From Syntrophales bacterium (GTDB lineage: Bacteria > Desulfobacterota > Syntrophia > Syntrophales > UBA2210), in contig CAXXKT010000002.1 of assembly GCA_963662405.2 (NCBI GenBank), positions 1-64,000 on the forward strand: 64,000 nucleotides of DNA, given 5' to 3'. A program made the position numbers and the translations under genes. The notes beneath the pieces were generated by a model, which saw nothing but the letters and a program-made list of their open reading frames with translations, made no database searches and was not told the origin of the DNA. This document shows positions 18,367 through 35,724 of this stretch, one piece after another. Position 1 is the first letter of the stretch. Every line of letters begins with the position of its first letter.

Positions 18367-19037
18367 TGCCTCATTATCGCGCTCCCGGATCAGCGTATGC
18401 TATGAACGAAGATGAAAAGCAAACAATCATTATCGCCTCGGAAAACAAGGGAAAGGTACGAGAACTTAAAGCGCTGCTTGAGGGAATGGAAGTGGACCTC
18501 CGGTCGCTGAGCGACTATCCTGACGCTCCTCATGTCGAGGAGAATGGGCGCACATTTCTTGAGAATGCCTTCATAAAGGCACGCACGATATCTGACTTTA
18601 CCGGCATGACGGTCATTGCGGACGATTCCGGGTTGGAGGTTGACGCGCTCGGGGGGAGGCCTGGTATATATTCGGCCCGATATGCGGGAGATACAGCGAC
18701 AGACGAAGAAAATATTTGCAAACTCTTATACGAAATGGGATCTGTTCCGGAAGGCAAGAGAGGGGCAGCCTTCCGTTGTGTGCTGGTTTTGTACCGGACC
18801 AACGGGACCTCTGAAACCTTTGAGGGGACATTGAGAGGATCAATTACTCGGGAACCATCGGGTAAAGAAGGATTCGGTTATGACCCCGTCTTTTTTGTCC
18901 CGGAATATATGGTCACCGTTGCCGAACTCGATCCGGCTGTCAAGAACCGGATCAGTCACCGGGGAAAGGCATTTGCACAGCTCAAAGACCGTTTGGCCAA
19001 GGACCAGGCGGTCGATAAAAACTCAATCGGGGCGTAG
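18366..19037 (+). CDS. rdgB: XTP/dITP diphosphatase (start may be 18402)
   Basis: [30 protein letters not shown]. Confidence 0.93.
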
Positions 19038-19104
19038 CGCAGCCTGGTAGCGCGCCTGCTTTGGGAGCAGGATGTCGCAGGTTCAAATCCTGCCGCCCCG
19101 ACCA
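19028..19104 (+). tRNA. tRNA-Pro(TGG)
   Basis: CGGGGCG acceptor stem, anticodon arm CCTGC-TTTGGGA-GCAGG, T loop GTTCAAATC, 3' ACCA. Confidence 0.97.
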
Positions 19105-19107
19105 TTT
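19060..19107 (+). repeat. attL of element A (48-bp tRNA-Pro 3' direct repeat, copy 1)
   Basis: TTTGGGAGCAGG...CCCCGACCATTT, identical to 28554-28601. Confidence 0.95.
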
Positions 19108-19323
19108 AAATCAAGTACTTATGATATATTCAGGGGAGTCAAAAAGAGATACTTTTATTACCGGACCGTTTCCGGTACCATTTTAATGAGTGCTTGAAGC
19201 ACAAAAAAGGCCCCCGATCTCTCAGGAGCTTCAAATCCTTGCAAAAAGATCAAGAATCCATTTCCTTACTAAGCAACATCAACATGCTATCCAAATACGA
19301 TAAAAAGAAGGGGGCATAAAAAC

Positions 19324-19734
19324 ATGGGATTTTTATCGCGCTTGTTCGGATCAAAAAAGCAAGAACTTATTGTCAATATACCTGGTCCCGGCCTATTTAA
19401 GCATGATGTAGTCGGGGAATCAAAATATCAGAAGGAGCTATCCGCAATATGTGGTGGCAAAACAGAGGACGGCCACAAAAAGGTTGTAACTGCCCTGCTG
19501 ATACATGAAGACACTAATAAATATGACAACAAAGCCATCCTTGTTGCTATTGATGGCAATCCGGTTGGTTATCTTGATAGAGAAAATGCGAGACAATTCA
19601 GGAAACTTCTTGCCGATGAAGGCTATCCCGGAGCCGGGGCAACATGTGCCGCCAAAATAGTCGGTGGCTGGCAAAGGAAAGACGGAGACGAAGGTCATTT
19701 CGGTGTCAAGCTTGATCTACCAGTGGTGGAATGA
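19324..19734 (+). CDS. HIRAN-domain-like protein
   Basis: VVGESKYQ...HEDTNKYDNKAILV...VGYL pattern typical of HIRAN. Confidence 0.7.
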   Translation: MGFLSRLFGSKKQELIVNIPGPGLFKHDVVGESKYQKELSAICGGKTEDGHKKVVTALLIHEDTNKYDNKAILVAIDGNPVGYLDRENARQFRKLLADEGYPGAGATCAAKIVGGWQRKDGDEGHFGVKLDLPVVE

Positions 19735-19944
19735 GGGCCGGGTGGTCTGGGTTCTGTTTTGAAAAGGGGGAGCTATGAAAACAAGCAGACTGATTAAATG
19801 TAAAAAACGTGACGGCAGTTATTGTTATTGTTCTTCTGATACTATTTTTTCTAACAGGCGGCTTCGGTCTGATGTATTAAGAATATGGGATGGAGCAATT
19901 AAAGAAAGGGTATAATTAACAGGCTTGAAAGGAGACCGTGGAAG

Positions 19945-20172
19945 ATGTCGCACACAATCAAAGAACTCCGAGAAACAAGTGATGAACAACTTATAATTGA
20001 CCATGATAAAAAAGCAGACAGTACCGATCCGGGTGTGAATTATTACCTCGATGAATTGCAGCGCAGGCAACAAAACAGACAAACCAAAATCATGTTGTGG
20101 CTTACTGTTGTGATAACGATATTAACAGCCGCCAATGTCATTACGGTTTTTGCTTCTCTGGCGTGTCGATAA
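19945..20172 (+). CDS. Small protein with C-terminal transmembrane helix
   Basis: 75-aa ORF with GGAG upstream and a hydrophobic tail IMLWLTVVITILTAANVITVF. Confidence 0.6.
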   Translation: MSHTIKELRETSDEQLIIDHDKKADSTDPGVNYYLDELQRRQQNRQTKIMLWLTVVITILTAANVITVFASLACR

Positions 20173-20344
20173 ATTCTCTGACTTCATATCGTCCTGGTTT
20201 CCGCTCAAAGCTATTCATTTCCGAGAGCTTTGCTTTCATAACCGCTCTGCCAGTTGACCACATAATCGCCCCGTCCCCGGTATTCATCCATCTTGAAATT
20301 TCGGTGTTCCATATTCCATAATGTTTCATATTGCTGTCCTCCAT
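20141..20344 (-). CDS. Small hypothetical protein
   Basis: ORF track; an internal GGAGG SD precedes the MKHYGIWN start. Confidence 0.45.
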   Translation of the reverse strand: MEDSNMKHYGIWNTEISRWMNTGDGAIMWSTGRAVMKAKLSEMNSFERKPGRYEVREFIDTPEKQKP

Positions 20345-20362
20345 TTTAAGAAAGGATCAAAT

Positions 20363-20552
20363 AATGACCGCACGAATAAAAAGTATTGACAACGATCTAA
20401 TAACCCTTGATGACGGTCACGCATATCGCGCCGAAAGAATGGATATGAATCGCCTATCATCGTGGAACGTTAATGACAAGGTTAGAATAGGATATGATTA
20501 CCTATTCCACTTTAAGCGCGAAAAAAAGGTACACGTCAGGCGCGAACGATAG
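20363..20552 (+). CDS. Small hypothetical protein (start approximate)
   Basis: AAGGA SD then MTARIKSIDNDLITLDDG...; beta-rich. Confidence 0.5.
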
Positions 20553-20718
20553 GAACCACGCACGCTACCTCTATAAGAAGTTTCCCCTCGCAGGCAATCT
20601 CTTGCCCCTGGAGATTTCTTTTTTTGAAATCGCGGTCAAGAGGATAAGCATCCTCTATTGATACGACTTCGATACCAGCCGCTTTAAGATCACTAATTAC
20701 CTTCTCTATTGTTCCCAT
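20536..20718 (-). CDS. Small hypothetical protein directly downstream of terL
   Basis: Strong AGGAGGTGAGGT SD, 60 aa. Confidence 0.6.
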   Translation of the reverse strand: MGTIEKVISDLKAAGIEVVSIEDAYPLDRDFKKRNLQGQEIACEGKLLIEVACVVPIVRA

Positions 20719-20789
20719 ACCTCACCTCCTGAATTTTTCTTAACTCTACCCCAGGCCGCCGTCTTCGGGAGAGGTCAACAATCTTGCGA

Positions 20790-22430
20790 TTAAAAACACA
20801 TCCCGGCGAGGATCTCCTCTTTCGTCATATTTTCGTATGCTGAAACGAACGCGTCTTCATGTAGCAACAGGCCACCGGCAAGGGCCATAATTGCCGCGAC
20901 TGCTGCATCTATCTTCTCTACGGATCGCCGCTTGGAGGGTTTCAGGTTTCCTGCTGCATCCGCTTCCGTGGTCAGATTCGATATACACCACCGTAGCACC
21001 GGGTCATCGTTGTGACGGAGTTTTCTGGAAAGTATCAGTTTCAAAAGTTCCTTCGTTGGTGCTGACTGATCTTTGTAGCCCTGCCCGTGTCCGACCATGA
21101 CCACACTTTCAGATTCAAGTGCTTGTCTCACCGATTCAGAGCCCCATCGGTCAAAGTGAATGGACTGAAGGTCAAATTGTGTTTTCAGTTGGAGAATCTT
21201 CTCTATGATGAAGTTGTATTCAATCACAGCACCGGGAATCGCTATCAAGTCACCACTGTTAATCCATTGCAGGTAAGGTTTTCTCCGGTGCTGTCTTGCG
21301 GTATCTTCGGGCAGCCAGGACCAGGACAGCAAGTAAAAAAGATCCTCTTCACCGTCAGGAGGGAAACACAAGGAAAAGGATGTCAAGTCCTGTGTGCTCG
21401 ATAGGTCAAGGCCACCGTAGCATTTACGGCCCGAAAGGTCAGGGATATCGCCCTTGCAGGCATCCCAATCGGTCATAGATATGAAGGGTGTAGCCGCTTC
21501 TGTCCACTGATTCAAGTGCAGCCTCTTGAATACGGCTTCATATGCAGGGCTTTCCTTTGCCCGTTCACACTCCCGTGCCAAGTACTCTTTGGAAATCGAA
21601 ACACCTAAACAGGGATTGACGGCCTCCCAGATTGCCGAATCTGTCCAAGCGGCCCCCGTGGGAGCCTCATAAATCACAGGGAAGAAGGCCTTGTCATTAA
21701 TAACGCCGTCCTGGACACCCTTGGCGTATTGATATTTTTCGTAACATATGCTTGTCTGATCATATCCCGCCGTAGTAATGGAAAGCGTCAATGGTTCCCG
21801 CCTCGCTCCCGTACTGGTTTGTAAAACGTCGATCAATTCACGGTCGGCGATTGCGTGAAGTTCATCAAATATGACAAGGTTTGAATTGCTACCATGCTTT
21901 GTGTTTGCTTCTGACGATAGAACCCGAAACACGCTGTCACGGTCAGGATATCTGATTTCACTTCTTAAGACTTCGGCGCGCCTGTCCAAATCCTCATCTT
22001 TAAAAATCATCATTTTCGCTGTATCAAAGACTATCCGTGCTTGTTGTCGATCCGCTGCGCAAGCGTAGAGTTGCTGGCCACGCTCCTCTTGGCAAAACAG
22101 AAAAAAGAGCGCAATACCAGAGATTAAAAGGCTCTTTCCGTTCTTCCTCGGTATGAAGATAAAGGCCTCCCGGAATCGCCTGAGGTGTGTCTTCTCATGC
22201 TTCCAGCCGAAAAGGTGGCCGATAATAGCCTCCTGCCACAATTCAAGCACAAAGGGATATAGGGCCTTTTCTCCGTGGACATGGTGAAGACACTCATGGA
22301 AGAAATCAATAGCCTCTTGACCGGCCTCGGCGTCAAGGTAGTAGTCTCCGGCGCTCTGGTACGGGTCGAATCTGACCGGATACCCCGGATTGAATTTGAT
22401 CCAATCATTTGAAGAATCTATTTTTTCCAT
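20790..22430 (-). CDS. terL: Terminase large subunit (HK97/Terminase_1 type)
   Basis: LELWQ, Walker A PRKNGKS, Walker B IFDELH, ITTAG, nuclease GLDLS, FDRW, KIDAAVA; intact 546 aa. Confidence 0.95.
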   Translation of the reverse strand: MEKIDSSNDWIKFNPGYPVRFDPYQSAGDYYLDAEAGQEAIDFFHECLHHVHGEKALYPFVLELWQEAIIGHLFGWKHEKTHLRRFREAFIFIPRKNGKSLLISGIALFFLFCQEERGQQLYACAADRQQARIVFDTAKMMIFKDEDLDRRAEVLRSEIRYPDRDSVFRVLSSEANTKHGSNSNLVIFDELHAIADRELIDVLQTSTGARREPLTLSITTAGYDQTSICYEKYQYAKGVQDGVINDKAFFPVIYEAPTGAAWTDSAIWEAVNPCLGVSISKEYLARECERAKESPAYEAVFKRLHLNQWTEAATPFISMTDWDACKGDIPDLSGRKCYGGLDLSSTQDLTSFSLCFPPDGEEDLFYLLSWSWLPEDTARQHRRKPYLQWINSGDLIAIPGAVIEYNFIIEKILQLKTQFDLQSIHFDRWGSESVRQALESESVVMVGHGQGYKDQSAPTKELLKLILSRKLRHNDDPVLRWCISNLTTEADAAGNLKPSKRRSVEKIDAAVAAIMALAGGLLLHEDAFVSAYENMTKEEILAGMCF

Positions 22431-22776
22431 TGCCGTTTTCCTCTTCTCTTGGTGTTATTTTTACACCTCGGCTGTATGGTGACAGTCCAAAGTGAGACAA
22501 AAGTTTCAAATAAAGGTCGCTGTAAGCTTTCCACATGGTAAAGGCCGGATGTTTTTTAGTGGTATCATGGAGCCCGTCAACGGCCAGGCCTTCACGCTCT
22601 ATCAGCCGGTCAGATACTGTCATCTTATGGTAAACGCGACACAGGGTTTCAAAGGTCTCACGGTCAAGATTGTCCAGTGAGCCCGACTCTACTAGGCGCG
22701 GGCCAACGCTTTTCCATAACCTTTTTCCGTGTTCTCCCAGGTCTGAAGGTGCTTTCCAGAGCTTTGTAATTTTCAT
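22405..22776 (-). CDS. terS: Terminase small subunit, P27 family
   Basis: APSDL...W, KKHPA, FGLSPYSR; overlaps the terL start. Confidence 0.9.
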   Translation of the reverse strand: MKITKLWKAPSDLGEHGKRLWKSVGPRLVESGSLDNLDRETFETLCRVYHKMTVSDRLIEREGLAVDGLHDTTKKHPAFTMWKAYSDLYLKLLSHFGLSPYSRGVKITPREEENGNGKNRFFK

Positions 22777-22827
22777 AATTTCCTCATTTACCTAAAACCG
22801 ATTGACCTTCAGCGGTGTGCTTCTGCC

Positions 22828-23211
22828 CTAGCGCCGGTATGACGATCTCGCGCTTTCTGAAGATTTTACCCCCCCCTTGGCCCCATGCTCAACGTTGTGA
22901 CAGGCAAGACAAAGGCTTTCCAGGTTATCCATAGCGAAGGGATCGCCACCGGCTTTCACTTCTTGCTTGTGGTGAACCATCGTGGCAGGTGTAACCCTTC
23001 CCTGATCCATGCACTTCTGACACAAGGGAAACTCTTCCAGGTGCAACCGTCTAACCTTGCGCCATTGCGATGATACATAGAGCGGGTCAGGTGTTTTGTT
23101 ACCTTTCTCTTTCGTGTATCCCTTCAAGTGCTCATCACAATAACCCGAAGCATTACGGGTCAGATTGTGACAACCCTTCATTTTACAGACTCTGAACGCT
23201 CTCTTTGCCAT
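22828..23211 (-). CDS. HNH endonuclease (terminase-associated, gp74-like)
   Basis: W.K.R...PLCQKC, VHHK, NLESLCLACHN; upstream of terS. Confidence 0.92.
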   Translation of the reverse strand: MAKRAFRVCKMKGCHNLTRNASGYCDEHLKGYTKEKGNKTPDPLYVSSQWRKVRRLHLEEFPLCQKCMDQGRVTPATMVHHKQEVKAGGDPFAMDNLESLCLACHNVEHGAKGGVKSSESARSSYRR

Positions 23212-23343
23212 CAATTTTTTCTCCGCTTTATCACAACACACAAACGAGCCAGCCCACAGCAAAACCCATTATGGCCATACACATATGAAGAAATATCTCT
23301 ATTACGTTCATCTCATTATCTCCTCGCATCCCTGTTATTTTGT

Positions 23344-25068
23344 TCACCGTGCCATTTCATCAAACCTTGAATATTCCCCGTGATAATAAAGCAGACATTC
23401 CCCGCCGCTGTTGTACCGGCTCGCCTCAATCCTGACCAAGGTTGCCGGATCATAACTTTCCGTTGCTAATTCCCCGCCGTTTCCCTTCTTCCTGGCCCGG
23501 TGTAAAATTATCAGGTGATCGCAATCCGAAAAGATTGAAGATGAATCTTTCAAATCCATTGCCGTCATGATTGAGTTGGCCTGAATCTTTCGCGGTTGTG
23601 CAATCAGGATGATAGGAATTTCAAGTTCTTCGGCAAGGAACTTGAAGGCTTGAACGGCAAGCCCGATTTCTTGAACCTGGTTATTGATTGACCGGCAAAG
23701 AAAATGAAGATGGTCAAAGCATATCAGCTTCAGACCATAGCGCCGAATTGCCGCTTTCAGTGTTTCCATGATCCCGTCAAGTGTCGGCTTCTGGTAGCAG
23801 TAACCCAGGTAAAAGGGCTTTCCCTTGAAGTCGATCCGCGCCCTTTCGATCTCTGCAAGACCGATCTCTTCTGATTTGTTATGGCATTGCATGGCCTTCT
23901 GAACGATCTTCATCGGTCGCATCTCAAGGCAAAAGAAGAGGGAAGGAATATCTTGAAGGGCGTTATGGGTGATGGTCTGTAAAGCAAGGGTTGACTTTCC
24001 TATCTTCGGGGGTGCGGATAGAACAATCAGTTCACCCGGCATAAAACCCGTTTTGATTATACGGTCAACAGCCCCCCAGCCGGTTCTAATCCCAGTCGCC
24101 TGGTCCGGTCGTTGCGCTTCCTCTCGATACTTTTTCACACCTTCGGCAAAGGTCATGATCCCGGCAACATCAAATTGACGCGCTTCATTGACCATCTCGG
24201 AAAATTCATTATGACCGCCGCCGGCCCGGAATAGGTCGTTTACGTCCTGGCCATCAGGTAAGGCCACGTTTAAACAGCGCTCATATCCTAACCTCCGCGC
24301 CGCTTCACGGGCTCCCTTCTGTCCCGGTTCATCCTGGTCATAGCAAAGGTATATTTTCTTAACGGCTTGAAGCTGGTCAATCCATGACGGGTCAAATGAT
24401 CCAGCCCCTGTGGTAACTCCAACAACGTTTTTTATTCCCTGGTCAATCAAGGTCAATGCGTCAAGTTCGCCCTCAGTGATATAGATCTCATCCGGGTGTT
24501 CCTCTACAACGTCACCGTTAAAAAGGATTGACCGGCAACCCTTAACGCGCCGGAAGGTCTTTTCTGTGGGGGGCAGTGACCGGCTCTTAATGTTTATCAG
24601 CTTGTCTTTTTCGTAGTGGGGTATGGTCAACCATCGGCCCCCGTCTCTGTCGATCTGTAATCCAAGCTTGAAAGCTTTGGCGGTCTCAATGCTGATCCCC
24701 CTGGCCTCTGTGATGTAACTTACGGCGTTCTGGTCGGTCAAAAGGCGCTCATAGGCTTCTGTGGCCTTCTTTTCATCCGGCTTGATTGAAGGGGCGTCTT
24801 TATCCTCGAAAGCCTGCCTGACGGCTCCCTGTGGCTTCTGGTTCATGCGTCTGGTCCCTCGCTGTGGTTGAAAGTCTCCATAATGTTTTTGCAGGGTGAT
24901 AAGGTTTCCCCGTTCCTGGCACTTGTGGCAATAGAAAGCGCCTTCATCCGGATCCATGTAAAAATGACTTTTCGGATCCCCGCAAAAGGGGCAGGTTTTC
25001 AAGACTGCCTGTCCTGATTGAATCCGGTATTCAAGCCCCTTGCTCTGAATATATTCAAGTGCCGTCAT
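23344..25068 (-). CDS. T7 gp4/Twinkle-like bifunctional primase-helicase
   Basis: Zn finger CPFC...CHKC, TOPRIM ITEGELD / CYDQD, SF4 helicase APPKIGKST, CLEM, FDHL, IAQPRK. Confidence 0.9.
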   Translation of the reverse strand: MTALEYIQSKGLEYRIQSGQAVLKTCPFCGDPKSHFYMDPDEGAFYCHKCQERGNLITLQKHYGDFQPQRGTRRMNQKPQGAVRQAFEDKDAPSIKPDEKKATEAYERLLTDQNAVSYITEARGISIETAKAFKLGLQIDRDGGRWLTIPHYEKDKLINIKSRSLPPTEKTFRRVKGCRSILFNGDVVEEHPDEIYITEGELDALTLIDQGIKNVVGVTTGAGSFDPSWIDQLQAVKKIYLCYDQDEPGQKGAREAARRLGYERCLNVALPDGQDVNDLFRAGGGHNEFSEMVNEARQFDVAGIMTFAEGVKKYREEAQRPDQATGIRTGWGAVDRIIKTGFMPGELIVLSAPPKIGKSTLALQTITHNALQDIPSLFFCLEMRPMKIVQKAMQCHNKSEEIGLAEIERARIDFKGKPFYLGYCYQKPTLDGIMETLKAAIRRYGLKLICFDHLHFLCRSINNQVQEIGLAVQAFKFLAEELEIPIILIAQPRKIQANSIMTAMDLKDSSSIFSDCDHLIILHRARKKGNGGELATESYDPATLVRIEASRYNSGGECLLYYHGEYSRFDEMAR

Positions 25069-25832
25069 ATAATCCTCATCCCCTGGCTTCTGTAATGTTC
25101 ATCAAGGGCATGACTCCCTGTTGACTTCATAACTTCCACGCTTGTCATGCTGGTCTCTGGTTTCAGATTTCGGATGATTCCCAAAAGGTACTTTTCGCCC
25201 TTCTTCTGTTCTGCATATCCCTTTTCAAGATAAGCCCTGGTCCCTGTCATAACCGACTCAACCGGGTATTTATTCCATGACTGCAAAATGGACAGCTTCA
25301 CACTGTCTGCAATTCGGTTTGATTTTCTGGTTGATGATATGGCTTGAAATGCCTGGTTGATGATTTCCTGGTTTGAATATCTTTCTTCCAGGGCAGAGAT
25401 TTCAGAAAGTATTTTTTCAGGGGTTCTTTTCTTCTTATGTTCTTTTGTTCTTGTATGTTGCCCTTTGTTTGCCACTTGTTTGTCGTTTTGCGTGTCGTTT
25501 TCGTTCTCACTGCTCTGGTAAACGCTCCAATTTACAATGGTAATTACCGAAAACTTGTTTGTCGTTTTGCGTGTCAAATTTCCGGCCTTTTCCAGAAAAT
25601 CAAGAATGGTGCGGATTTCCCGGACTGTAAGGCCCGTTTCCTTAGAAGCTACGCGTAATCCGAAGATGAATTGACCCGGCATAAGGTGGACAACCTGCAA
25701 GCCTACAATGGCATCAAATTCTTTATGGGTAGCCTTCATGAGGCAGTAGGTCCAGAAAGCCCAAAGCTTATGATTCTTGATCCATCCGGCATCAAGGGAC
25801 TTGCGCCATAGTTTCACATAGCCTTGATTCAT
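25065..25832 (-). CDS. Phage-type replication initiator / replisome organizer (winged helix)
   Basis: GYVKLWRK...LMKA...PGQF...TNKFSVITIVNW..YQ N-terminus typical of phage initiators; internal DNA repeats; ATGA-coupled to the primase. Confidence 0.75.
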   Translation of the reverse strand: MNQGYVKLWRKSLDAGWIKNHKLWAFWTYCLMKATHKEFDAIVGLQVVHLMPGQFIFGLRVASKETGLTVREIRTILDFLEKAGNLTRKTTNKFSVITIVNWSVYQSSENENDTQNDKQVANKGQHTRTKEHKKKRTPEKILSEISALEERYSNQEIINQAFQAISSTRKSNRIADSVKLSILQSWNKYPVESVMTGTRAYLEKGYAEQKKGEKYLLGIIRNLKPETSMTSVEVMKSTGSHALDEHYRSQGMRII

Positions 25833-26041
25833 TTATCCGCCCCCACTGGTAGCTGATACGCCTTCGGATCTTCAAACCGGGCATTGAAGAGTGCTGCAAT
25901 TTCTTCCTCAGTGATCTGGACACGGCCCCTCTTATCTGCCAGTTCAGCGATTAGAAGGAACATGTTCGCGCCCAGAGGATTCTTCTGGAAAAGACGGTTG
26001 TACCGCTTCTTGAATTTCCGGTTCGGCTTGACGTCGATCAT
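25829..26041 (-). CDS. Small hypothetical protein between AlpA and initiator
   Basis: 70 aa, coupled to its neighbours. Confidence 0.6.
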   Translation of the reverse strand: MIDVKPNRKFKKRYNRLFQKNPLGANMFLLIAELADKRGRVQITEEEIAALFNARFEDPKAYQLPVGADK

Positions 26042-26043
26042 GA

Positions 26044-26250
26044 TTAGGCCTCGATAGAACCCCGCGAACCATCCCGCGCCGCTAATCGTTCCGCCAGCCA
26101 TGCATCAATCTCTTCTTCAAGCCAGCCAACAGAGTTTCCCCCCAACTGTAGCCGCTTCGGGAATCGTCCCGCCTTTTCCATTCTCCAGATAGTGGGATCG
26201 CTGAGGGGAACCCGTGATAGAAGTTCCGGTTTTCTGATTACTCTGGTCAT
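26044..26250 (-). CDS. alpA: AlpA family regulator / excisionase
   Basis: IRKPEL...LSDPTIWRMEKAGRFPKRLQLGGNSVGWLEEEI. Confidence 0.92.
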   Translation of the reverse strand: MTRVIRKPELLSRVPLSDPTIWRMEKAGRFPKRLQLGGNSVGWLEEEIDAWLAERLAARDGSRGSIEA

Positions 26251-26365
26251 TGTTGCTTTTCCTTTCCGGCAAAAAAAATGCCCATCAAGTGTTCTTTTGA
26301 TAGGCATTAAAGCACAGTACAAAACATTGCTCTATGTATGGGGGTACGGCAGTTACGTACAGTAT

Positions 26366-27148
26366 TTATGGTGTAACAGTGATATTGTTTCCCATTGGTG
26401 CGGCGTTTGTTGTATCGATCTTGACTGCGAAAGTATTTTTTGTGGCATAAATGACTGGTGAATCTTTGCCGTTTAACAAGGTTGCATCCTTACCCGTGGC
26501 ACCAGATAGGGTAACAATGTCACCGTCTAAAAGACCGTGATTTTCTTTTTCTATGATTGTAGGATAGCCTATTCTGGCAGTACAGTCCCGTACAGGGTCT
26601 TTCTTCCATTTTTCAGCGTTCCGATAAAACCATTGCTTAACAGTTTCAAAATTTATGTCTGTTCCCCACTCTTCTTTGACACATTGCGCCGCACCACGGA
26701 AGATATCATCCATTGGTTTGCCATCATTCTTGTTGATTTGATCAATAACATATGAAATAGCAATGATTCTTTCGCGATAGGATTTGTATTGTTTCCAAGG
26801 TCCAGAACCGCCAGAAGAATCAAAGCCGAAGCACCAATCGAGCTTATTTGCCTTATTGTCTGTACGCATAAGACGCTTTGCGGTCCCGTCAAGATATTTT
26901 AATATCCATTCAGGGAGCGGGAGGCTGTTCTCCCGTACAAATTGGTAGGCGTCCCATACAGCAAGAGGGTTTCCTGTTTCCTCATAATCAAGTTTAAATC
27001 CATCAAGTGATCTCTTCTTTTGCTGCTGGATTATATCCAGCCCTCTAAAATAGGCTTTTAAACGAACCTCCACGGGTCCGCTTTCAGGCACTTCGGGGGG
27101 CAGAAGATAGTAGTTTAGAGGTAGTGTTCTACGTCGTTTTTTAGCCAT
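26366..27148 (-). CDS. Hypothetical protein with C-terminal FCCH-like beta domain
   Basis: Overlaps the integrase stop; C-terminus HGLLDGDIVTLSG...LNG...NTF..IDT. Confidence 0.6.
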   Translation of the reverse strand: MAKKRRRTLPLNYYLLPPEVPESGPVEVRLKAYFRGLDIIQQQKKRSLDGFKLDYEETGNPLAVWDAYQFVRENSLPLPEWILKYLDGTAKRLMRTDNKANKLDWCFGFDSSGGSGPWKQYKSYRERIIAISYVIDQINKNDGKPMDDIFRGAAQCVKEEWGTDINFETVKQWFYRNAEKWKKDPVRDCTARIGYPTIIEKENHGLLDGDIVTLSGATGKDATLLNGKDSPVIYATKNTFAVKIDTTNAAPMGNNITVTP

Positions 27149-28367
27149 GCTTGTAATCCCCCATTGAAATAACTTTGCCGCCTGTAGGTGCAAATCCAAG
27201 GATTGATTGTAAGCGCCGTTCCCAAGCCATCAGCGCTTGACGTTTTTCTTTGTCATAGGGATAGCGATTATAGACGGCCAAAAGCCCTTGAAGTTTATGC
27301 CCCAGTACCCGCTCCGCGATTACATCATCAATTCCGATTTCAGCAAGACGGGTCCGCAGGGTCCGACGGATATCATGAGAAGAAAATCCCTCTGTGATTC
27401 CCATTTCCGACCAATGTCTCCGGATCGCGTTTGTCATTGCCCCCACCGTGACAGGAGTTCCTTCGTTATGCGTCGATCTGAAAACCCATAATGAATCACT
27501 TGAATAAATCTTTGCTTCGTCAAGTATATCCTGCATCATAGGAACAACCGGAACCCGGTTTTCTTCGTTGTTTTTTCGAGCGTCCGCCGGTATCACCCAC
27601 CACGCATCGGAGAGGTTCTCCCACTTCATCCTTGCAACCTCTCCCGGCCTTTGCCCGGTCAACAGGATCATTTTCAAGGATAGTTTTGTCAATCGGTAAA
27701 TGTCGATCTCCGTATTTTCAAGATCCATAGCAGACCAAAAAAGCTTAATCTCTTCATCAGAAAGTACACGTGAACGAGGAGTTTCCTTGGTCTTCCGCAT
27801 GCCACCCAAGGGAGAAAATTCTATCATCCCCCGTTCGGCTGCGAAGTTGAACATTCTGACAAGCACCCCTTGCAAACGATTTGCACCAATAGGAGCTCGT
27901 TCTCTCACCTTGTCCAGTAACAGGACAGCATCCCGCCTTGTGATCGTGTTCACCTTGCGCCGTTTCCAAGAGGGTAGGGCATCTTTTTTTACAAGCCTTC
28001 GCCGCTCTCCGCCTGTCTTGCTTTTTGATAATTCTCGTTCCCAAAATTCGTTGAGTAGATCCTCAAAAGTTGGGTCCAGCTTGGATTTGCTCTTTTTTTC
28101 CTTGGCCTTTGCTGCTGGGTCAATGCCGTTTTCAACGTCTCGTAAGGCAAGAGCAGTCCGTTCCCTGGCCATGGCAAGTGAGACAGCCGGATATAATCCA
28201 AGGGAAAGCCTCTTTCGCCCCGGATTTTTGCCAGTATAGGTATAACGCAAGGTCCAGGATTTCTTCCCTGACGGATAAACCCGAAGGAATAAACCATTCT
28301 CATCTGCGAGATAAAACTCTTGATCGCGTGGTTTAATCCGTCTGATTTGAAGGTCAGTCAATGGCAT
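27141..28367 (-). CDS. int: Tyrosine integrase, P4-like with arm-binding domain (element A)
   Basis: GLFLRVYPSGKKSW, LGLYPAVSL, TGQRPGE, HDIRRT, LGH, VYN. Confidence 0.95.
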   Translation of the reverse strand: MPLTDLQIRRIKPRDQEFYLADENGLFLRVYPSGKKSWTLRYTYTGKNPGRKRLSLGLYPAVSLAMARERTALALRDVENGIDPAAKAKEKKSKSKLDPTFEDLLNEFWERELSKSKTGGERRRLVKKDALPSWKRRKVNTITRRDAVLLLDKVRERAPIGANRLQGVLVRMFNFAAERGMIEFSPLGGMRKTKETPRSRVLSDEEIKLFWSAMDLENTEIDIYRLTKLSLKMILLTGQRPGEVARMKWENLSDAWWVIPADARKNNEENRVPVVPMMQDILDEAKIYSSDSLWVFRSTHNEGTPVTVGAMTNAIRRHWSEMGITEGFSSHDIRRTLRTRLAEIGIDDVIAERVLGHKLQGLLAVYNRYPYDKEKRQALMAWERRLQSILGFAPTGGKVISMGDYKHG

Positions 28368-28491
28368 AATATTTCCCTTTCGTGCGGTCCGGCAGTTATT
28401 CTCGGACCGTTTCCGGTACCATTTTTTAGGGTATAACAGCGAAGAAACATGAAACGCTATGAAGAGAGAATATTGCTATATCCTCTTAATG

Positions 28492-29828
28492 TCAATAGAT
28501 TTTTGAATGCTCTTGAATGGTTTTGAAAAGGAGAGAAAGATGGAAAATTCTTTTTTGGGAGCAGGATGTCGCAGGTTCAAATCCTGCCGCCCCGACCATT
28601 TTTATATTATAATTACAATAACTTACAAAAGTTTTGTGCCTCAAAATAGTGGTGCAAAGCTCGTTCAGTTTTTGTTGATTTTTCCCCTCTCCTGACGACT
28701 TCGCATAGATCATTCTGACGTCATCCGATTCAATCTGAAAATACCGTTCAAAAGCCTTGTTGGTGGAATGCATTGTTGCCCGTTTTATCTGTTCAGGGGA
28801 GAAATGCTTTCTCAGGGCTCGCGCGGAACTGTGACGTGTCCCTCCGTACAGATCAACGTCAGCAATTCCCAAATTTGAACAGGCTCTTTTCCAGTATCGG
28901 CGTAAAAGGTCATTGCCAAAAGGGGCACCTTCCTTGAAAACACGTTGACCCTTGGCCGCAGGTCTATGTCGAAAGAAATGGAGGCGAGGAAGGGCAGGGG
29001 GGAACGTTTTAAGAATCTCGATATCCTCATCCAGTAAAGAACGGCCTTGTAACGCTTCTCTTTTGGGTGTGGGAAGAGAAAATAGCCATTACCCGTATCG
29101 ATATGACCCTCTTGGAGAGAAAGAAGCTCCTTGGGCCGAATTGAAATATATGTGGCAAGCCAACGTATGGCAAGGTAGATTTTGGGATTCACATTATGCG
29201 ATATATTCCAAACCTCGTTAAGAATAGCGTCTTGAGTTTCCTTGTCAATGACGTTCCTGAAACCGAGGGTAAATTTACATTCAGGAAATTCGGGGAATTC
29301 ATACTGCCTGAAAGATTTCTTTTCTCTTCTCCATACCCACGTAAAAAAGTCATGGAGACAAGACATATAATTTGAAGCAGTTTTAGCGCCAACATTCAAG
29401 GAAGACTTGAAGTCCTCAAGCTCTCCATATTGAATCTTTTTGATCGTTATATCATCAAAGAATTCTTGTGCAGTTTTTATATAATTTTGAAGATTTTGGA
29501 AGTGACGTTTTGTGATAACTCCTCTCTGAACTTCGTCTGATTTGAGCAATAACCATTTGTCAGACAGGGTTTTAAATCCCAGTGGGTTCCCAGCTTGATA
29601 ATCTCTCCGATCAAAAGTTCCTTCATCTTCCTTGTAACGGATACCTTCGAGAAATCGCCGTGCACTGTCATAATAGGTAAATGTCTTATATACCCCTTTG
29701 AACTTTATAAAAAATGAAGACGCTTTTTCATCCCTGTGTTTCGGGCAATAAAGGCCCGTTTTCCCGTCATCTTTAAAAGATCGATTACATTTAGGACACC
29801 GCTCACGAGAATAGATTCCGCCTATCAT
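28492..29828 (-). pseudogene. int: Tyrosine integrase of element B with one frameshift near 29039; ORF reads through the att site
   Basis: N-terminal CPKC..CPKH and ISIRPKEL; adding one base gives VPLLDEDIEIL...YWKRACSNLG...GTRHS...MHSTNKAFERY. Confidence 0.8.
28554..28608 (+). repeat. attR of A / attL of B (tRNA-Pro 3' repeat, copy 2)
   Basis: 48-bp match to 19060-19107; 28572-28608 matches 38382-38418 (37 bp). Confidence 0.95.
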
Positions 29829-29981
29829 GCACAGTCCCCCTTTTTGATATAATGGGGGATAAGTATCACGAACGGGAGAATCTTTCAAATTAGGCCACCT
29901 CCACGCAGAACAAAGGGTATTCTTGTTCGGAGGTTTTCGGTTTATCAGTGTATGTTGTGATATCCATGGAATTCACCGTGC

Positions 29982-31172
29982 TTAATATTTCCTTTGGAAT
30001 CGCCTAACCATTTTATGTACCCGTTCAGTTCTGGAATCCTTCTTCCGGTGGTACTTTGCTCTTTTTTCCTTGACCCGTGCTTGCACGTCGGGAAGATATT
30101 CAGGGTACATAGAAACTTGTTCGGCATAGGTAGCAACACAATCATGAATACTGTAAGTGGTTTCAGGACTTCTCCTTTTTTCTTGATCAAGAGCATGAAG
30201 TGAAATGGCTAATCCATTTAACTGTTGAATCAGTCGTATCTCATCATTACACACGGCCTTTTCCCTCACGAGAGGTTCGGCATCCTGTACATTGTTGAAT
30301 CCATTTTGAATCACCTTCCACCACCCAAAGGTTGACCTCTGGGTGTGATGAAGACCCGGCCTGTCCTGAAACTTGAGCCAATTTCTTGTGCAATACGCCC
30401 AAAGATTAACCGCCTTTTTTAAAAGATCAGAAGGCGTGTCAATATGGACTTCATCAAGGACTTCCCGCCTCATCTGAAATTCAAACCGTATAATCTTGGA
30501 GCTTTCCGGAACTTCCGAAATACCCCATACATCAAACATCCATGTTTTTTTCGATTGCTGTTTGATCTCCAAAGGCTTGTCATACAGTCGGGCTGAAATA
30601 TCACCTTTTCCGATCCGAATACCGGTCAGCTTTTTGTGCCGAAAATAGGGAGCATAATCGGTTGCACGACTGACAACATATTCCAAGAGCTTCGTATTCC
30701 ACCATCCTTCGGGCATAAGAACATCAACGCATAAGTCAACACGGCTTACTCTTTTCTTTGTAATATATCCCCCATTTGCTTCAACAATTCCCACCACCGT
30801 TTTAATTGCTTTATGTACGCCCAAATGCCAGAGGGTTTCAGAACGAATTTCTACGATAACACTTGCTTGAGGCCCCGGTTCTTTCCAGTTGCCCACTTTG
30901 AAGGTAAAATCAGAGGCCAAGAGAATCCAAGCATATCCCTTAGCCCCATGCGGTTTGATCAAGAAAGGCCACTCTTCAGAAGGATCGGCATATTTCAGTT
31001 TTCCCGGATGATCTTTTTTGAGCTCTTGGGCTTTTTTTTTCAGTTCTTCGAGATATGGAAATAAACGAGGGCCGCGCCAGGCAACATCCATAGATAAAAC
31101 AAGGGTATCCACACCAGAGGCAAGTATATTTTCCTGATTAATTTTCACCTTTGAGGGGTACCTGATAGTCAT
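29982..31172 (-). CDS. Rolling-circle replication initiator / relaxase, Rep_trans-like
   Basis: GVDTLVL, VSRVDLCVD, IRIGKG...ARLYDKPLE, IIRFEFQMR. Confidence 0.75.
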   Translation of the reverse strand: MTIRYPSKVKINQENILASGVDTLVLSMDVAWRGPRLFPYLEELKKKAQELKKDHPGKLKYADPSEEWPFLIKPHGAKGYAWILLASDFTFKVGNWKEPGPQASVIVEIRSETLWHLGVHKAIKTVVGIVEANGGYITKKRVSRVDLCVDVLMPEGWWNTKLLEYVVSRATDYAPYFRHKKLTGIRIGKGDISARLYDKPLEIKQQSKKTWMFDVWGISEVPESSKIIRFEFQMRREVLDEVHIDTPSDLLKKAVNLWAYCTRNWLKFQDRPGLHHTQRSTFGWWKVIQNGFNNVQDAEPLVREKAVCNDEIRLIQQLNGLAISLHALDQEKRRSPETTYSIHDCVATYAEQVSMYPEYLPDVQARVKEKRAKYHRKKDSRTERVHKMVRRFQRKY

Positions 31173-31591
31173 ACGGTACCCCCACTATCAGATGACAGAT
31201 CAAGGGACATTTGCCCCTCAGATATCCACCGGTTTTTAGCAACACGTCTCTTTTTGTCTTTGCTTTTGATATTTCCCTGACTTCTGGATCTGATCGGATG
31301 ATCTGAAGATTGCTCAGCATCAAAAAAGTTAGCCTTTGCGGTCTCTCTGCCGGACCGCTTTGGCTTTTCGCATCCAGAATGCTGGCGACGAAGGAGAGTA
31401 GTTTTTTCCTCTTCCGATAGTACACGTGAACCGGGAAAGGCTTGGAGTATTTTATTGATGAGCGGTTGATGTTTTTTCTTGATTATATCAGCGTAAGTTC
31501 TCAGGGGCTGTGCCGACAAATTATATATACGGCTCACCTCTTCACGAACGGGGATTTCATCATTTAACGAAAGATTATGCTTTAAAAACAT
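31169..31591 (-). CDS. Hypothetical basic protein translationally coupled to rep (candidate leader)
   Basis: ATGA overlap with rep; its SD lies in a hairpin. Confidence 0.6.
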   Translation of the reverse strand: MFLKHNLSLNDEIPVREEVSRIYNLSAQPLRTYADIIKKKHQPLINKILQAFPGSRVLSEEEKTTLLRRQHSGCEKPKRSGRETAKANFFDAEQSSDHPIRSRSQGNIKSKDKKRRVAKNRWISEGQMSLDLSSDSGGTV

Positions 31592-31622
31592 AAAACTCTC
31601 CCATGTGCAGTGGGAGAGCCTC

Positions 31623-31651
31623 TTGACACACCCGATCTAACGGAATATCAT
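31623..31651 (+). promoter_or_regulatory. Sigma70 promoter, antisense to the rep operon
   Basis: TTGACA-17 nt-TATCAT. Confidence 0.7.
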
Positions 31652-31657
31652 TACAAG

Positions 31658-31740
31658 TGATATTGGGCTGCCGAAAGGCTCTCATATCGTTACAGAGACC
31701 AAGCACCGGGACCGGCCAAAGTCAGGTGCTTGGTCTCACT
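31658..31740 (+). ncRNA. Putative countertranscript (antisense copy-control RNA)
   Basis: Downstream of the promoter, with no ORF, ending in a 13-bp stem GAGACCAAGCACC/GGTGCTTGGTCTC (31695-31737). Confidence 0.5.
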
Positions 31741-31745
31741 CCTGA

Positions 31746-32015
31746 TTATTCTTTAATCTTCAATTCTCCTTCTTCGTTGAAGGTAATTTTCCCACTGGCA
31801 ATGCCTGCCCGGATATTCTTTATGAGTTTCTGACCGAATTTAAAGGCAGCAAGCAAACCGATTTTCTCCAACATGATTGCATCTTCATATGCTGACTCTA
31901 AGAGGTTCCTCATTAGCTGACTCCTGCTGACCCCGATCTTAGTCGCCATTTCATCGAGCTTTGCGACAAATTCAGGTTCAAGTTGAACGGTATATTGCTC
32001 TTTTGTCTTTTTCAT
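31746..32015 (-). CDS. Ribbon-helix-helix (CopG-like) repressor
   Basis: YTVQLEPEFVAKLDEMA...VSRSQLMRNLL. Confidence 0.85.
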   Translation of the reverse strand: MKKTKEQYTVQLEPEFVAKLDEMATKIGVSRSQLMRNLLESAYEDAIMLEKIGLLAAFKFGQKLIKNIRAGIASGKITFNEEGELKIKE

Positions 32016-32026
32016 ATCTTGCCCCC

Positions 32027-32052
32027 ATTATGATGTGACTTTACATCATAAT
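32027..32052. promoter_or_regulatory. Palindromic operator upstream of the copG-like gene
   Basis: ATTATGATGT-6 nt-ACATCATAAT, perfect 10-bp arms. Confidence 0.6.
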
Positions 32053-32136
32053 CATCTCATATATCATTTCCATTGTCAAAGGTTTTTTTTCTAATGAAAT
32101 TCAAAAAATGCGGGGAGAGAGCTAATCACACAAAGA

Positions 32137-32266
32137 CTCTCCCCTTACGCCTTGCCGTGATTAGCACGAGCGCCCGAACTGTCAAGGGTTCCCTTCGGCT
32201 CACTTCGTTCGGCCTTGACAGTCCGGCCTTGGCTCGTGCTTAAAAATAATCAGGCGACGGGGAGAG
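32137..32266. other. Long imperfect hairpin, candidate single-strand/double-strand origin of element B
   Basis: Nested arms CTCTCCCC/GGGGAGAG, TGATTA/TAATCA, AGCACGAGC/GCTCGTGCT, ACTGTCAAGG/CCTTGACAGT. Confidence 0.55.
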
Positions 32267-32622
32267 GGTAGGGCGACATTCAGGCTCAAGGAAAAGGGTA
32301 GAAACTATGTAAATGTTCATTTTGATGGTTCATGTCCACTTATTTGTCGGAATAATTTGGTAGCATAAGTTGTAATCACAATATGAAAGCAAAACATTAA
32401 ATTATCTTGACAATACACTGCCATAGAGTTAACAACTAGTTGTTTTAAATCTTGATGTAAATTTTCTTAAAGTACCCAGCTGTAACAATCAGTTGCCCTG
32501 AATCAGTACGCTATGCGCGCAGCATCTCATGAATCAGTGAATTGATTTGACCCATTCAGGATAAATCATCCGCAGAGTGTTATGTCTATTAACGAAAGAT
32601 ATATCTATAAGGTGTGAATTTT

Positions 32623-32967: not shown

Positions 32968-33030
32968 GGCGATTATATACTTGACAAACCCATTTGGGGG
33001 TGCTATTCTACTTTCAAATGGAGGCAAACC

Positions 33031-35721: not shown

Positions 35722-35724
35722 CGA

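What the first reader, a model, noticed from the sequence alone, without database searches (positions are those of the whole stretch)
19108..28601. Terminase-only phage satellite: full HNH-TerS-TerL packaging motor but no portal, capsid or tail
Seen: a complete att-bounded 9.5-kb unit with int, AlpA, an initiator, a primase-helicase, then intact HNH, P27-type TerS and a 546-aa TerL. After terL there are only 60-136 aa ORFs before attL. No portal, protease or capsid remnant sits where HK97-type operons place them, and the core shows no frameshifts. Known: classical PICIs/SaPIs carry TerS or a TerS-redirecting protein and borrow TerL; capsid-forming PICIs carry terminase plus portal, protease and capsid; P4 carries no terminase. 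Inference: this element may represent a different hijack strategy, supplying the whole DNA recognition, cutting and translocation motor and docking it on a helper prohead portal. A cf-PICI that cleanly lost its head genes is the alternative.
Basis: partly seen in the sequence, partly recalled or inferred. Interest (0 to 1): 0.85.

Follow-up and report, generated by a model that had tools for sequence, protein, structure and literature searches.

The report
Phage satellite with terminase but no head
This is an intact 9.5-kb island at a tRNA-Pro gene that carries integrase, replication genes and a complete HNH-TerS-TerL DNA-packaging enzyme set but no capsid or portal gene, a layout that recurs in unrelated small elements and would let a phage satellite bring its own packaging motor and likely steal only empty heads from a helper.

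Summary
Window 19108-28601 is a 9,494-bp unit bounded by an exact 48-bp repeat of the tRNA-Pro 3' end. It carries int, AlpA, a DnaD-like initiator, a primase-helicase, HNH, TerS and an HK97-type TerL, and no head gene.

It is not a one-off deletion.
- A sibling island is 92-96.5% identical in the DNA on both sides of this slot. There it holds a TerS-like gene plus a capsid gene instead, so the terminase set is a swapped cassette.
- A circular 9.3-kb virome contig (L312, TerL 63% identical) has a different integrase and replication gene. It carries the same HNH-TerS-TerL, then attP, and no head gene.
- Of 96 more distant TerL relatives with enough context, 94 have a portal gene downstream.
- TerL looks constrained (rough dN/dS about 0.09).
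- Near-identical cassette DNA lies in five metagenome runs from five studies.

More distant relatives in the same bacterial order (TerL 35-42%), two of them at the same tRNA-Pro site, are capsid-forming elements with capsid and portal.

Packaging into a helper's proheads is inferred. No helper is known. I found no report of such satellites in four literature searches. Earlier notes of this scan had flagged the same stretch.

The parts
19028..19104 (+). tRNA-Pro(TGG), the integration target
   Evidence: ARAGORN
19060..19107 (+). att core, tRNA-proximal copy (48 bp)
   Evidence: Exact 48-nt direct repeat with 28554-28601
19155..19184 (+). 30-nt repeat, copy 1. Likely an integrase arm-type site (inferred)
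   Evidence: 93% identical to 28396-28425. The two copies would flank the core in the circular form. L312 has an analogous pair of repeats around its attP.
19324..19734 (+). 136-aa HIRAN-like accessory protein
   Evidence: Pfam HIRAN 6.6e-4. Atlas HIRAN clusters score 0.95. 96% identical in sibling L217.
19945..20172 (+). 75-aa ORF, unknown function
   Evidence: No family. 99% identical in sibling L217.
20141..20344 (-). 67-aa ORF, unknown function
   Evidence: No family. 86% identical in sibling L217.
20348..23337 (.). Swapped cassette (2,990 nt) holding a 60-aa ORF, terL, terS and HNH
   Evidence: blastn against sibling L217: flanks 19806-20347 at 96.5% and 23338-25436 at 95%. The interior is replaced by 2,668 nt with a TerS-like gene and a capsid gene. 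The same joint is seen in lake metagenome contig X3.
20536..20718 (-). 60-aa ORF just after terL, inside the cassette
   Evidence: ORF list. No family.
20790..22430 (-). TerL, 546 aa, HK97-type large terminase
   Evidence: Pfam TerL_ATPase and TerL_nuclease, and phrog_9. PDB 6z6d, E 1.7e-63, with the Walker and nuclease motifs aligned. These motifs are invariant in the 14-member clade.
22405..22776 (-). TerS, 123 aa, Terminase_4 (P27 family)
   Evidence: Pfam 7.2e-17, phrog_83 2.7e-19. Overlaps terL by 26 nt.
22828..23262 (-). HNH endonuclease (likely start at ATG 23211)
   Evidence: Pfam HNH 2.4e-9, phrog_144 6.5e-30. Sequence read.
23344..25068 (-). Primase-helicase (zinc ribbon, Toprim, DnaB-like)
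   Evidence: Pfam, and phrog_239. 400 homologues at E<=1e-40. 97% identical in G037 and 83% in a third island of the same genome.
25065..25832 (-). DnaD-like replication initiator or helicase loader
   Evidence: phrog_2514 2.9e-31. Its N-terminal 121 aa are 88% identical to the island at tRNA-Cys on contig C1.
25829..26101 (-). 90-aa ORF conserved in the backbone family
   Evidence: 48-70% identical copies stand ahead of the DnaD-like gene in 7 of 13 related loci.
26044..26322 (-). AlpA-family regulator or excisionase
   Evidence: Pfam Phage_AlpA 1.2e-12, phrog_2790
26366..27199 (-). 277-aa two-domain protein of unknown function (likely start at 27148)
   Evidence: 301 representatives at E<=1e-3. 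In the AF2 model, residues 20-185 are all-helical with pLDDT above 90. No PDB match. It is not an HK97-fold capsid.
27141..28367 (-). Tyrosine integrase with an arm-binding domain
   Evidence: Pfam and phrog_1. 54% identical to the integrase of the capsid-forming element at the same tRNA-Pro site in G172.
28396..28425 (+). 30-nt repeat, copy 2
28554..28601 (+). att core, distal copy (48 bp)

Best explanation
Window 19108-28601 is an intact, tRNA-Pro-integrated, PICI-like island that carries a complete HK97-type HNH-TerS-TerL terminase cassette and no head gene, and it is predicted to use that enzyme set to cut and pump its own replicated DNA into proheads made by a helper.

Shown:
- The boundaries, the gene set and the absence of any capsid or portal gene.
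- The cassette occupies the slot right after the primase-helicase. Relatives with the same backbone carry there a TerS gene, or a TerS-like gene plus a capsid gene.
- The same head-less layout recurs with other integrases and replication genes.

Inferred:
- A helper triggers excision by Int and AlpA.
- The DnaD-like protein and the primase-helicase replicate the circle into concatemers.
- TerS, TerL and HNH recognise and cut the island's own cos or pac site.
- TerL docks on a portal supplied by the helper, which also provides capsid, protease, connectors, tail and lysis.

With no size-redirection gene, the 9.5-kb DNA would enter either full-size heads as multimers or small heads of about 10 kb.
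For: Anatomy:
- Exact 48-bp att repeats, flanking 30-nt repeats and intact genes.
- TerL is HK97-type (6z6d, E 1.7e-63). HK97-type cos phages need an HNH partner (Kala 2014 and Quiles-Puchalt 2014, as cited in the cf-PICI preprint passages).

Satellite backbone:
- The primase-helicase has 400 homologues at E<=1e-40 and is present in 12 of 339 genomes of the order, counting this genome.
- I fetched the loci of the other 11 genomes. The slot after the helicase holds a TerS-like gene plus a capsid gene in L217 and a TerS gene in L220. None of the 11 holds TerL or a portal.
- A second island of the same genome (L003) also holds a TerS-like gene plus a capsid gene.

Cassette swap: sibling L217 is 92-96.5% identical on both flanks, with only 20348-23337 replaced. 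Lake metagenome contig X3 (9,350 nt) shows the same joint.

Recurrence:
- L312 is a circular 9,325-bp element with TerL 63% identical. Its order is DUF3987 replication gene, HNH, TerS, TerL, attP (a tRNA-Leu 3' part flanked by 20-nt repeats), int. It has no head gene and its largest unknown ORF is 198 aa.
- L038 (TerL 67%) has a DUF3987 gene followed by HNH-TerS-TerL.
- L004 (59%) has no portal in the 2 kb after terL.

Baseline: 94 of 96 TerL relatives at 42-50% identity (plus L005 at 28%) with at least 3 kb downstream have a portal downstream, 91 of them right after terL.

Constraint: 18 of 546 residue changes against 120 of 2,664 nt changes, a rough dN/dS of 0.09. The Walker A and B motifs and the nuclease Asp columns are invariant in 14 clade members.

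Spread: cassette DNA at 92-100% identity lies in runs X9, X12, X14, X15 and X16, from five studies.
Against: - No helper is known. The genome has no PF04860 or SPP1-type portal. Its one prophage has a GpA-type terminase and a lambda-family portal, a different system.
- No cos or pac site was identified.
- No excision joint was seen in the contigs of the source run.
- The dN/dS figure assumes that DNA changes are spread evenly over the 2,664-nt piece.
- For 10 of the 13 other TerL clade members I could not see gene context at all. For L038 only 200 nt follow terL.
- TerL-portal pairing is thought to be fairly specific, and TerL and capsid are tightly linked in known cf-PICIs. A motor without its own portal is therefore mechanistically demanding.
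Confidence: 0.6

Rival explanations
1. A decaying capsid-forming satellite. The island descends from a cf-PICI-like element such as those at the same tRNA-Pro site. It lost capsid and portal, and its terminase genes are leftovers with no present role.
For: Elements in the same order carry int, AlpA, HNH, TerL, capsid and portal, two of them at the same rdgB/tRNA-Pro site with the same polarity (G172, G232). The G172 integrase is 54% and its AlpA 47% identical to the island's. In the FastTree, the island's TerL clade groups with four of these TerLs (98*), apart from 43 of 45 phage TerLs.
Against: - There is no remnant of capsid or portal.
- Both flanks of the cassette are shared at 92-96.5% with a sibling that has a different cassette.
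- terL is full length, with invariant motifs and a rough dN/dS of 0.09.
- The head-less layout recurs in L312, which has an unrelated integrase and replication gene.
- The cassette is found in five metagenome runs.
Confidence: 0.1
2. Interference cargo. The cassette serves mainly to block a phage or a rival satellite, by occupying proheads or cutting foreign DNA, rather than to package the island itself.
For: - The slot and the region next to it carry defence-like cargo in other family members (TIR, FRG, toxin-antitoxin, caspase-WD40).
- Satellites are known to manipulate helper packaging motors (PLE paper; title and abstract seen).
- VEIME authors list TerS among interference genes.
Against: - PADLOC finds nothing in the cassette.
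- The three genes are the exact set a cos phage uses for its own packaging.
- In L312 they are the only recognisable phage-like genes of a circular element that was assembled as a free circle.
- Both roles could coexist.
Confidence: 0.12
3. Division of labour with a co-resident island. The terminase island and the TerS-plus-capsid island at tRNA-Cys on contig C1 together supply a head and its motor.
For: The two islands share a 90-aa gene (70% identity) and the N-terminal 121 aa of the DnaD-like protein (88%). One has the terminase and the other a capsid gene 38-42% identical to those of the capsid-forming elements.
Against: Neither island has a portal or a protease, and none of the HK97 type exists in the genome. 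The sibling and L312 occur in other genomes or as free circles without such a partner being evident.
Confidence: 0.05

Closest known systems
Capsid-forming PICIs (cf-PICI; EcCIEDL933 type)
   Same: Integrase, AlpA, a replication module and an HNH-TerS-TerL set of the HK97 kind. Small size and att-bounded. The TerL clade groups with TerLs of compact capsid-forming elements of the same order.
   Different: No major capsid, portal, protease or head-tail connector gene. The cf-PICI authors stress tight linkage of TerL and capsid. Here that linkage is broken.
Classical PICIs and SaPIs
   Same: Same order of int, AlpA, replication genes and packaging-redirection genes. Size about 9.5 kb. The slot after the replication genes holds a TerS gene, or a TerS-like gene plus a capsid homologue, in siblings. 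That resembles TerS-bearing PICIs and the Ccm capsid homologue of SaPIbov5 (abstract of PMC8569155).
   Different: Classical PICIs lack TerL and borrow the helper's (passage in PMC13612085). This island has its own TerL and HNH.
HK97-type cos phages with an HNH accessory nuclease
   Same: TerL matches the solved HK97 TerL (6z6d, E 1.7e-63). HNH stands directly before terS-terL.
   Different: 94 of 96 TerL relatives with context have a portal gene downstream. Here terL is followed by a 60-aa ORF and then ORFs on the other strand. The best TerL identity to any deposited phage is about 45%.
VEIMEs, PICMIs, MiniFlayer/MulchRoom, EPIPs
   Same: Small helper-dependent elements. VEIMEs can carry TerS, HNH and AlpA.
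   Different: - For VEIMEs, the passages read name TerS, HNH and 'motor-like ATPases', and expect TerL to come from the helper.
- MiniFlayer and MulchRoom carry TerS, TerL, portal and capsid together.
- EPIPs carry TerS and capsid-related genes.
- PICMI gene content was not read here.

Membership tests
cf-PICI (11 core components in SatelliteFinder; at least 9 needed) | Integrase, AlpA and a primase/replicase | tested here: met
cf-PICI | HNH, TerS and TerL | tested here: met
cf-PICI | Major capsid protein, portal and head maturation protease | tested here: not met
   No Pfam or PHROG match in any ORF of 55 aa or more. tblastn with relatives' proteins is blank. The only unassigned ORF above 140 aa is all-helical.
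cf-PICI | Head-tail adaptor and connector | tested here: not met
   No match
Classical PICI | att-bounded island of roughly 10-15 kb with int, AlpA (Gram-negative type) and its own replication module | tested here: met
Classical PICI | Packaging redirection gene (TerS, Rpp or Ppi) after the replication module | tested here: met
   TerS Terminase_4. Siblings carry TerS or a TerS-like gene in the same slot.
Classical PICI | No large terminase; the helper's TerL is used | tested here: not met
   An intact 546-aa TerL is present
Classical PICI / any phage satellite | Induction, packaging and transfer depend on a helper phage | not testable with these tools
   No helper identified. No excision joint in the contigs.
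P4-like satellites | psu, delta, sid, epsilon and an alpha-type primase | tested here: not met
   The only shared items are int and AlpA. No other P4 marker appeared among the Pfam or PHROG matches.
HK97-type terminase with HNH | TerL with a Walker A/B ATPase and an RNase H-like nuclease, homologous to HK97 TerL, and an adjacent HNH | tested here: met
   6z6d alignment. Invariant columns. HNH next to terS.
HK97-type terminase with HNH | A cognate cos site cut by the enzyme | not tested
   No cos site could be recognised from sequence alone

The most novel reading that the evidence does not exclude
The TerL clade around this island marks a separate class of 'motor-only' satellites of about 9.3-9.5 kb. 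They carry HNH-TerS-TerL on interchangeable integrase and replication backbones. They parasitise not a phage head but the small heads built by the 10-11.4-kb capsid-forming satellites of the same bacteria: a satellite of a satellite.

The hints:
- The island's TerL groups with those elements' TerLs rather than with phage TerLs.
- The island shares their tRNA-Pro site and a related integrase.
- The sizes nearly match: 9,494 and 9,325 bp against 9,978-11,366 bp.
Probability: 0.12. Interest if true: 0.92.

Novelty: new variant of a known kind. Interest (0 to 1): 0.72.

Why it matters
Known phage satellites fall into two camps. Some borrow the helper's large terminase. Others bring a whole head together with the terminase. 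An element that brings only the enzyme set that recognises, cuts and translocates DNA would be a third hijack strategy.

It would show that TerL can be uncoupled from its own portal and capsid in nature. It would also give a natural test case for how specific TerL-portal docking is.

The family further shows that the packaging slot of these islands is a swappable cassette. TerS alone, a TerS-like gene plus capsid, or HNH-TerS-TerL can sit between flanks that are 92-96.5% identical. Satellites could thus change their mode of parasitism by a single recombination.

Detection tools that demand capsid genes alongside terL would miss such elements.

Tried and rejected
- **Excision or circle joints.** The source run's contigs break at the att repeats. 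No attP or empty-site joint was seen.
- **RNA.** No RNA holder was listed.
- **Close relatives in genome contigs.** Only L004 (59%) and L005 (28%) were found.
- **Metagenome scans.** The first found nothing. The second was swamped by 42-50% relatives and gave only L038 and L049 from the clade.
- **Viral-contig scans.** With the island's own TerL: one relative at 42%, L027. With alignment A1: no clade member. With P0004 (swamped) and P0009: no clade member. A back-translated P0004 peptide gave 0 matches.
- **Genome sampling.** 401 genomes of the phylum and the 10 genomes of the order around L004's genome gave only TerLs of 40-45% (L004's own, at 60%, aside).
- **Contig length as an argument for head-less layout.** Dropped, because the capsid-forming elements are also only 10-11 kb.
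- **L049.** Its terL is cut by a transposase gene, so it is uninformative.
- **Promoter and terminator scan.** Not above shuffles: 9 against 13.6 expected, and 16 against 11.6.
- **The 277-aa protein.** No Atlas hit. Foldseek on the model found no PDB match at E<=0.001.
- **PADLOC.** Nothing for any ORF of the island.
- **Island B.** No capsid or portal match in its ORFs, so the two islands together do not make a head.
- **Resident prophage as helper.** It has a GpA terminase and a lambda-family portal, a different system from the island's HK97-type TerL. This does not exclude it.

Full report
**Observation.** A tRNA-Pro(TGG) gene lies at 19028-19104. Its 3' part plus three bases (19060-19107) is repeated exactly, 48 of 48 nt, at 28554-28601. 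The bounded unit, 19108-28601, is 9,494 bp.

On the minus strand it carries, without any interruption:
- a tyrosine integrase with an arm-binding domain
- a 277-aa unknown protein
- AlpA
- a 90-aa ORF
- a DnaD-like initiator
- a zinc-ribbon/Toprim/DnaB-type primase-helicase
- an HNH endonuclease
- a Terminase_4 TerS
- a 546-aa TerL with full ATPase and nuclease domains

The TerL matches the solved HK97 large terminase (6z6d, E 1.7e-63), with the Walker A and B and nuclease motifs aligned.

Between terL and the tRNA there are only ORFs of 60-136 aa. None matches a head protein family. tblastn with 26 capsid, portal, protease and neighbouring proteins of relatives found no remnant there. An independent assembly of the source run covers 19078-25498 in one contig with no difference, so there is no assembly gap after terL. 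A 30-nt repeat (19155-19184 and 28396-28425) would flank the core in the circular form.

**Surroundings.** A third, partial copy of the tRNA 3' end near 38383-38414 bounds a second island, B (28602-38414). It has a split integrase, an IS1595 transposase, a PIN protein and a 722-aa TPR protein, and no capsid or portal match.

The 3.8-Mb genome has:
- no other TerL of this family
- no PF04860 or SPP1-type portal
- one prophage on contig C1 (about 2.35-2.38 Mb) with a GpA-type terminase, a lambda-family portal, a capsid and a tape measure

It also has two more islands related to this one.
- One lies at tRNA-Cys (C1, about 2.438-2.446 Mb). It has a TerS-like gene, an HK97-type capsid gene, a DnaB-like helicase, and a DnaD-like gene whose N-terminal 121 aa are 88% identical to the island's.
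- One lies at the tmRNA gene (C1, about 322-329 kb). It has an 83%-identical primase-helicase and no packaging gene.

**Relatives found through TerL in the same order.** 18 of 339 genomes, counting this one, have a TerL match at E<=1e-20. The best is 42% identical.

Five of these loci are compact tRNA-bound elements of 10.0-11.4 kb: G172, G161, G232, G090 and G276. Sizes by att repeats are known for four of them; G232 runs off its contig. Their gene order is int, (AlpA), replication gene, HNH, (TerS), TerL, an N-terminally extended capsid protein, a PF04860 portal and a sigma-70 region 4-like protein.

Two of them sit at the same rdgB/tRNA-Pro site with the same polarity. The G172 integrase is 54% identical to the island's. 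These are capsid-forming satellites in all but name, and they are what the 'lost its head genes' alternative would start from.

**The backbone family and the sibling.** The primase-helicase has 400 homologues at E<=1e-40, at 63-88% identity. Source names include Syntrophales, Smithellaceae and 'Deltaproteobacteria'. It is found in 12 of 339 genomes of the order, counting this one. I fetched the loci of the other 11 genomes.
- None has TerL or a portal.
- The slot right after the helicase holds a TerS-like gene (phrog_83) plus a 397-aa capsid gene in L217, a Terminase_2 TerS in L220, and a DUF5681 protein in L224. Elsewhere it holds unknown small ORFs.
- Further along there is cargo such as TIR, FRG, toxin-antitoxin, M48 peptidase or caspase-WD40 genes.

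L217 comes from genome G037, in another family of the order. It is a sibling of the island. Window 19220-19806 matches at 92%, 19806-20347 at 96.5% and 23338-25436 at 95%. Only 20348-23337 differs: it is replaced by 2,668 nt that hold the TerS-like and capsid genes. A 9,350-nt contig of lake metagenome run X3 shows the same joint.

The terminase set is therefore a discrete cassette in the packaging slot of a PICI-like backbone. It was exchanged by recombination. It is not what remains after a deletion.

**Recurrence of the head-less layout.** In the 5.8-billion-protein collection the TerL has one 97% relative and a clade of twelve at 61-70%, mostly 546 aa long. Full-length hits then drop to about 52%.

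Context could be seen for four members or near members.
1. The 97% relative lies on a 5,543-nt contig of run X9. It has the same order: small-ORF region, terL, terS, HNH, primase-helicase.
2. P0011 (63%) lies on IMG/VR contig L312.
 - The contig is 9,452 nt with an exact 127-nt terminal overlap, so it is a circle of 9,325 bp.
 - It carries a DUF3987 replication protein, two ORFs of 144 and 198 aa, HNH, TerS (Terminase_4) and TerL.
 - A 427-nt spacer follows. It holds the 3' part of a tRNA-Leu(TAA) gene flanked by a 20-nt repeat. Then come a tyrosine integrase and DUF739 and DUF4326 proteins.
 - No ORF matches a portal or capsid by HMM, tblastn or Pfam.
 - This is the excised form of another tRNA-integrating island with the same logic and unrelated integration and replication genes.
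3. L038 (67%) has a DUF3987 protein, two ORFs, and HNH-TerS-TerL. The contig ends 200 nt after terL.
4. L004 (59%) has five small opposite-strand ORFs and no portal in the 2 kb after terL.

As a baseline I took TerL relatives at 42-50% identity from metagenomes and IMG/VR, plus L005 at 28%. Of the 96 with at least 3 kb downstream:
- 91 have a PF04860 portal right after terL
- 3 have it 3.2-6.6 kb further on, behind inserted metabolic genes
- 2 run out of contig inside such inserts

In a FastTree of 82 TerLs the island's clade is one branch (support 67). Together with P0016 and 12 hits of unknown context it groups with four TerLs of the capsid-forming elements (98*). 43 of 45 portal-adjacent TerLs lie outside that group. 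This tree was not repeated with a slower method.

**Constraint and spread.** The 97% relative differs at 18 of 546 residues. The X9 contig differs at 120 of 2,664 nt over terL-terS-HNH. With 360 synonymous and 1,278 non-synonymous sites in terL, this gives a rough dN/dS near 0.09, if the DNA changes are spread evenly. Walker A, Walker B and the nuclease aspartate columns are invariant in the 14-sequence clade alignment.

Fragments of the cassette at 92-100% identity occur in runs X9, X12, X14, X15 and X16, labelled metagenome, landfill, oil field and sediment, from five studies. Runs X3 and X10 (lake and freshwater) hold the capsid-type sibling.

**Hidden head genes.** The only unassigned ORF long enough for an HK97-fold protein is the 277-aa protein between int and alpA. 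It has 301 representatives at E<=1e-3 in two domains. A model built on 40 sequences is all-helical with pLDDT above 90 over residues 20-185. It has no PDB match. It is not a capsid or portal. The 136-aa ORF next to att is HIRAN-like.

**Mechanism.** The parts list and its recurrence are shown. The rest is inferred from what these families do elsewhere.
- A helper triggers excision by Int and AlpA.
- The DnaD-like protein and the primase-helicase replicate the circle.
- TerS, TerL and HNH recognise and cut the island's own site in the concatemer.
- TerL docks on a portal that the island does not encode.
- The helper supplies head, connectors, tail and lysis.

The island, its sibling and L312 are all 9.3-9.5 kb, which hints at a packaging size constraint. 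That could mean small heads of about 10 kb, such as the capsid-forming elements of the same order would make. It could also mean multimers in a full-size head.

**Comparison with the literature.**
- *SatelliteFinder paper:* the passages read define cf-PICI by terL together with capsid and head-tail genes, and require at least 9 of 11 core components.
- *cf-PICI preprint:* the passages list capsid, protease, portal, connectors, HNH, TerS and TerL, and stress linked TerL and capsid phylogenies.
- *A 2026 Enterobacter survey:* it states that classical PICIs lack TerL and portal.
- *Other satellite classes:* passages on VEIMEs name TerS, HNH and motor-like ATPases and expect TerL from the helper. 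MiniFlayer and MulchRoom carry terminase with portal and capsid. EPIPs carry TerS and capsid-related genes.
- *Search coverage:* four full-text searches turned up no satellite described with TerL but no head genes. Supplements were not read, and papers outside the held library were not searched.

**Limits.**
- No helper, no cos site and no particle data.
- Context is unknown for 10 of the 13 other clade members.
- The dN/dS is rough.
- The tree is a quick method.

Noticed in passing
window 28602-38414: A second island sits in tandem at the same tRNA-Pro, bounded by a partial third copy of the tRNA 3' end (about 38383-38414). Its integrase is split into two frames (28812-29888 and 28492-28872). 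It also holds a 396-aa endonuclease-like protein, an IS1595 transposase with DUF4062 (PADLOC PDC-S60, 2e-17), a PIN protein, and a 722-aa TPR protein whose repeats are the 120-bp tandem array at 36462-38321.
   Followed up: partly
own genome C1:2438000-2446000 (L003 6040-14000): A third satellite-like island lies next to tRNA-Gly and tRNA-Cys. It carries int, a TerS-like gene (phrog_83), a 437-aa HK97-type capsid gene, a 168-aa protein homologous to one next to the capsid gene in G276, a DnaB-like helicase and a DnaD-like gene. The DnaD-like N-terminus is 88% identical to that of the island studied.
   Followed up: partly
own genome C1:322000-329300 (L201): A fourth island lies at the tmRNA gene, with int, a DnaD-like gene (50%) and a primase-helicase (83%). 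It has no packaging gene. Downstream lie a 1,249-aa CARDB/Ig-domain protein, an IS element and a 1,256-aa protein with no Pfam match.
   Followed up: partly
own genome C1:2350000-2380000 (L202, L203): A resident prophage with a D5-like primase, a DNA methylase, a GpA-type terminase, a lambda-family portal, a 684-aa protein with a Phage_capsid_4 domain in its C-terminal half, a cement protein and a tape measure. It is the only complete head module in the genome.
   Followed up: partly
L028, L030, L031, L032, L033 (genomes G172, G161, G232, G090, G276): Compact capsid-forming elements at tRNA genes; the four with both att ends measure 10.0-11.4 kb. They have an unusual order: HNH, TerL, a 567-605-aa capsid protein with a long N-terminal extension, portal, then a sigma-70 region 4-like protein. 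Some lack a recognisable TerS or primase. They look like a minimal cf-PICI type.
   Followed up: partly
L217 (G037:C33:1-9000) against window 19220-25436: Island segments 92-96.5% identical in DNA occur in genomes of two different families of the order. This points to recent horizontal spread of the backbone.
   Followed up: partly
L312 3585-4011: The attP of the circular element has the 3' part of tRNA-Leu(TAA), from the anticodon stem to the end, between two copies of a 20-nt repeat (3695 and 3961). Two islands of the primase-helicase family (L223, L227) sit next to tRNA-Leu(TAA) genes.
   Followed up: partly
L104, L159, L072, L166: Phage-like contigs in which metabolic genes are inserted between terL and the portal gene: FkbM methyltransferase and glycosyltransferases, or amidoligase, glutamine amidotransferase and gamma-glutamyl cyclotransferase.
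   Followed up: no
window 25474-25496 and 25553-25575: An exact 23-nt direct repeat lies 79 nt apart inside the DnaD-like gene. Logan's contigs of the source run break there. It could be an iteron-like origin element.
   Followed up: no
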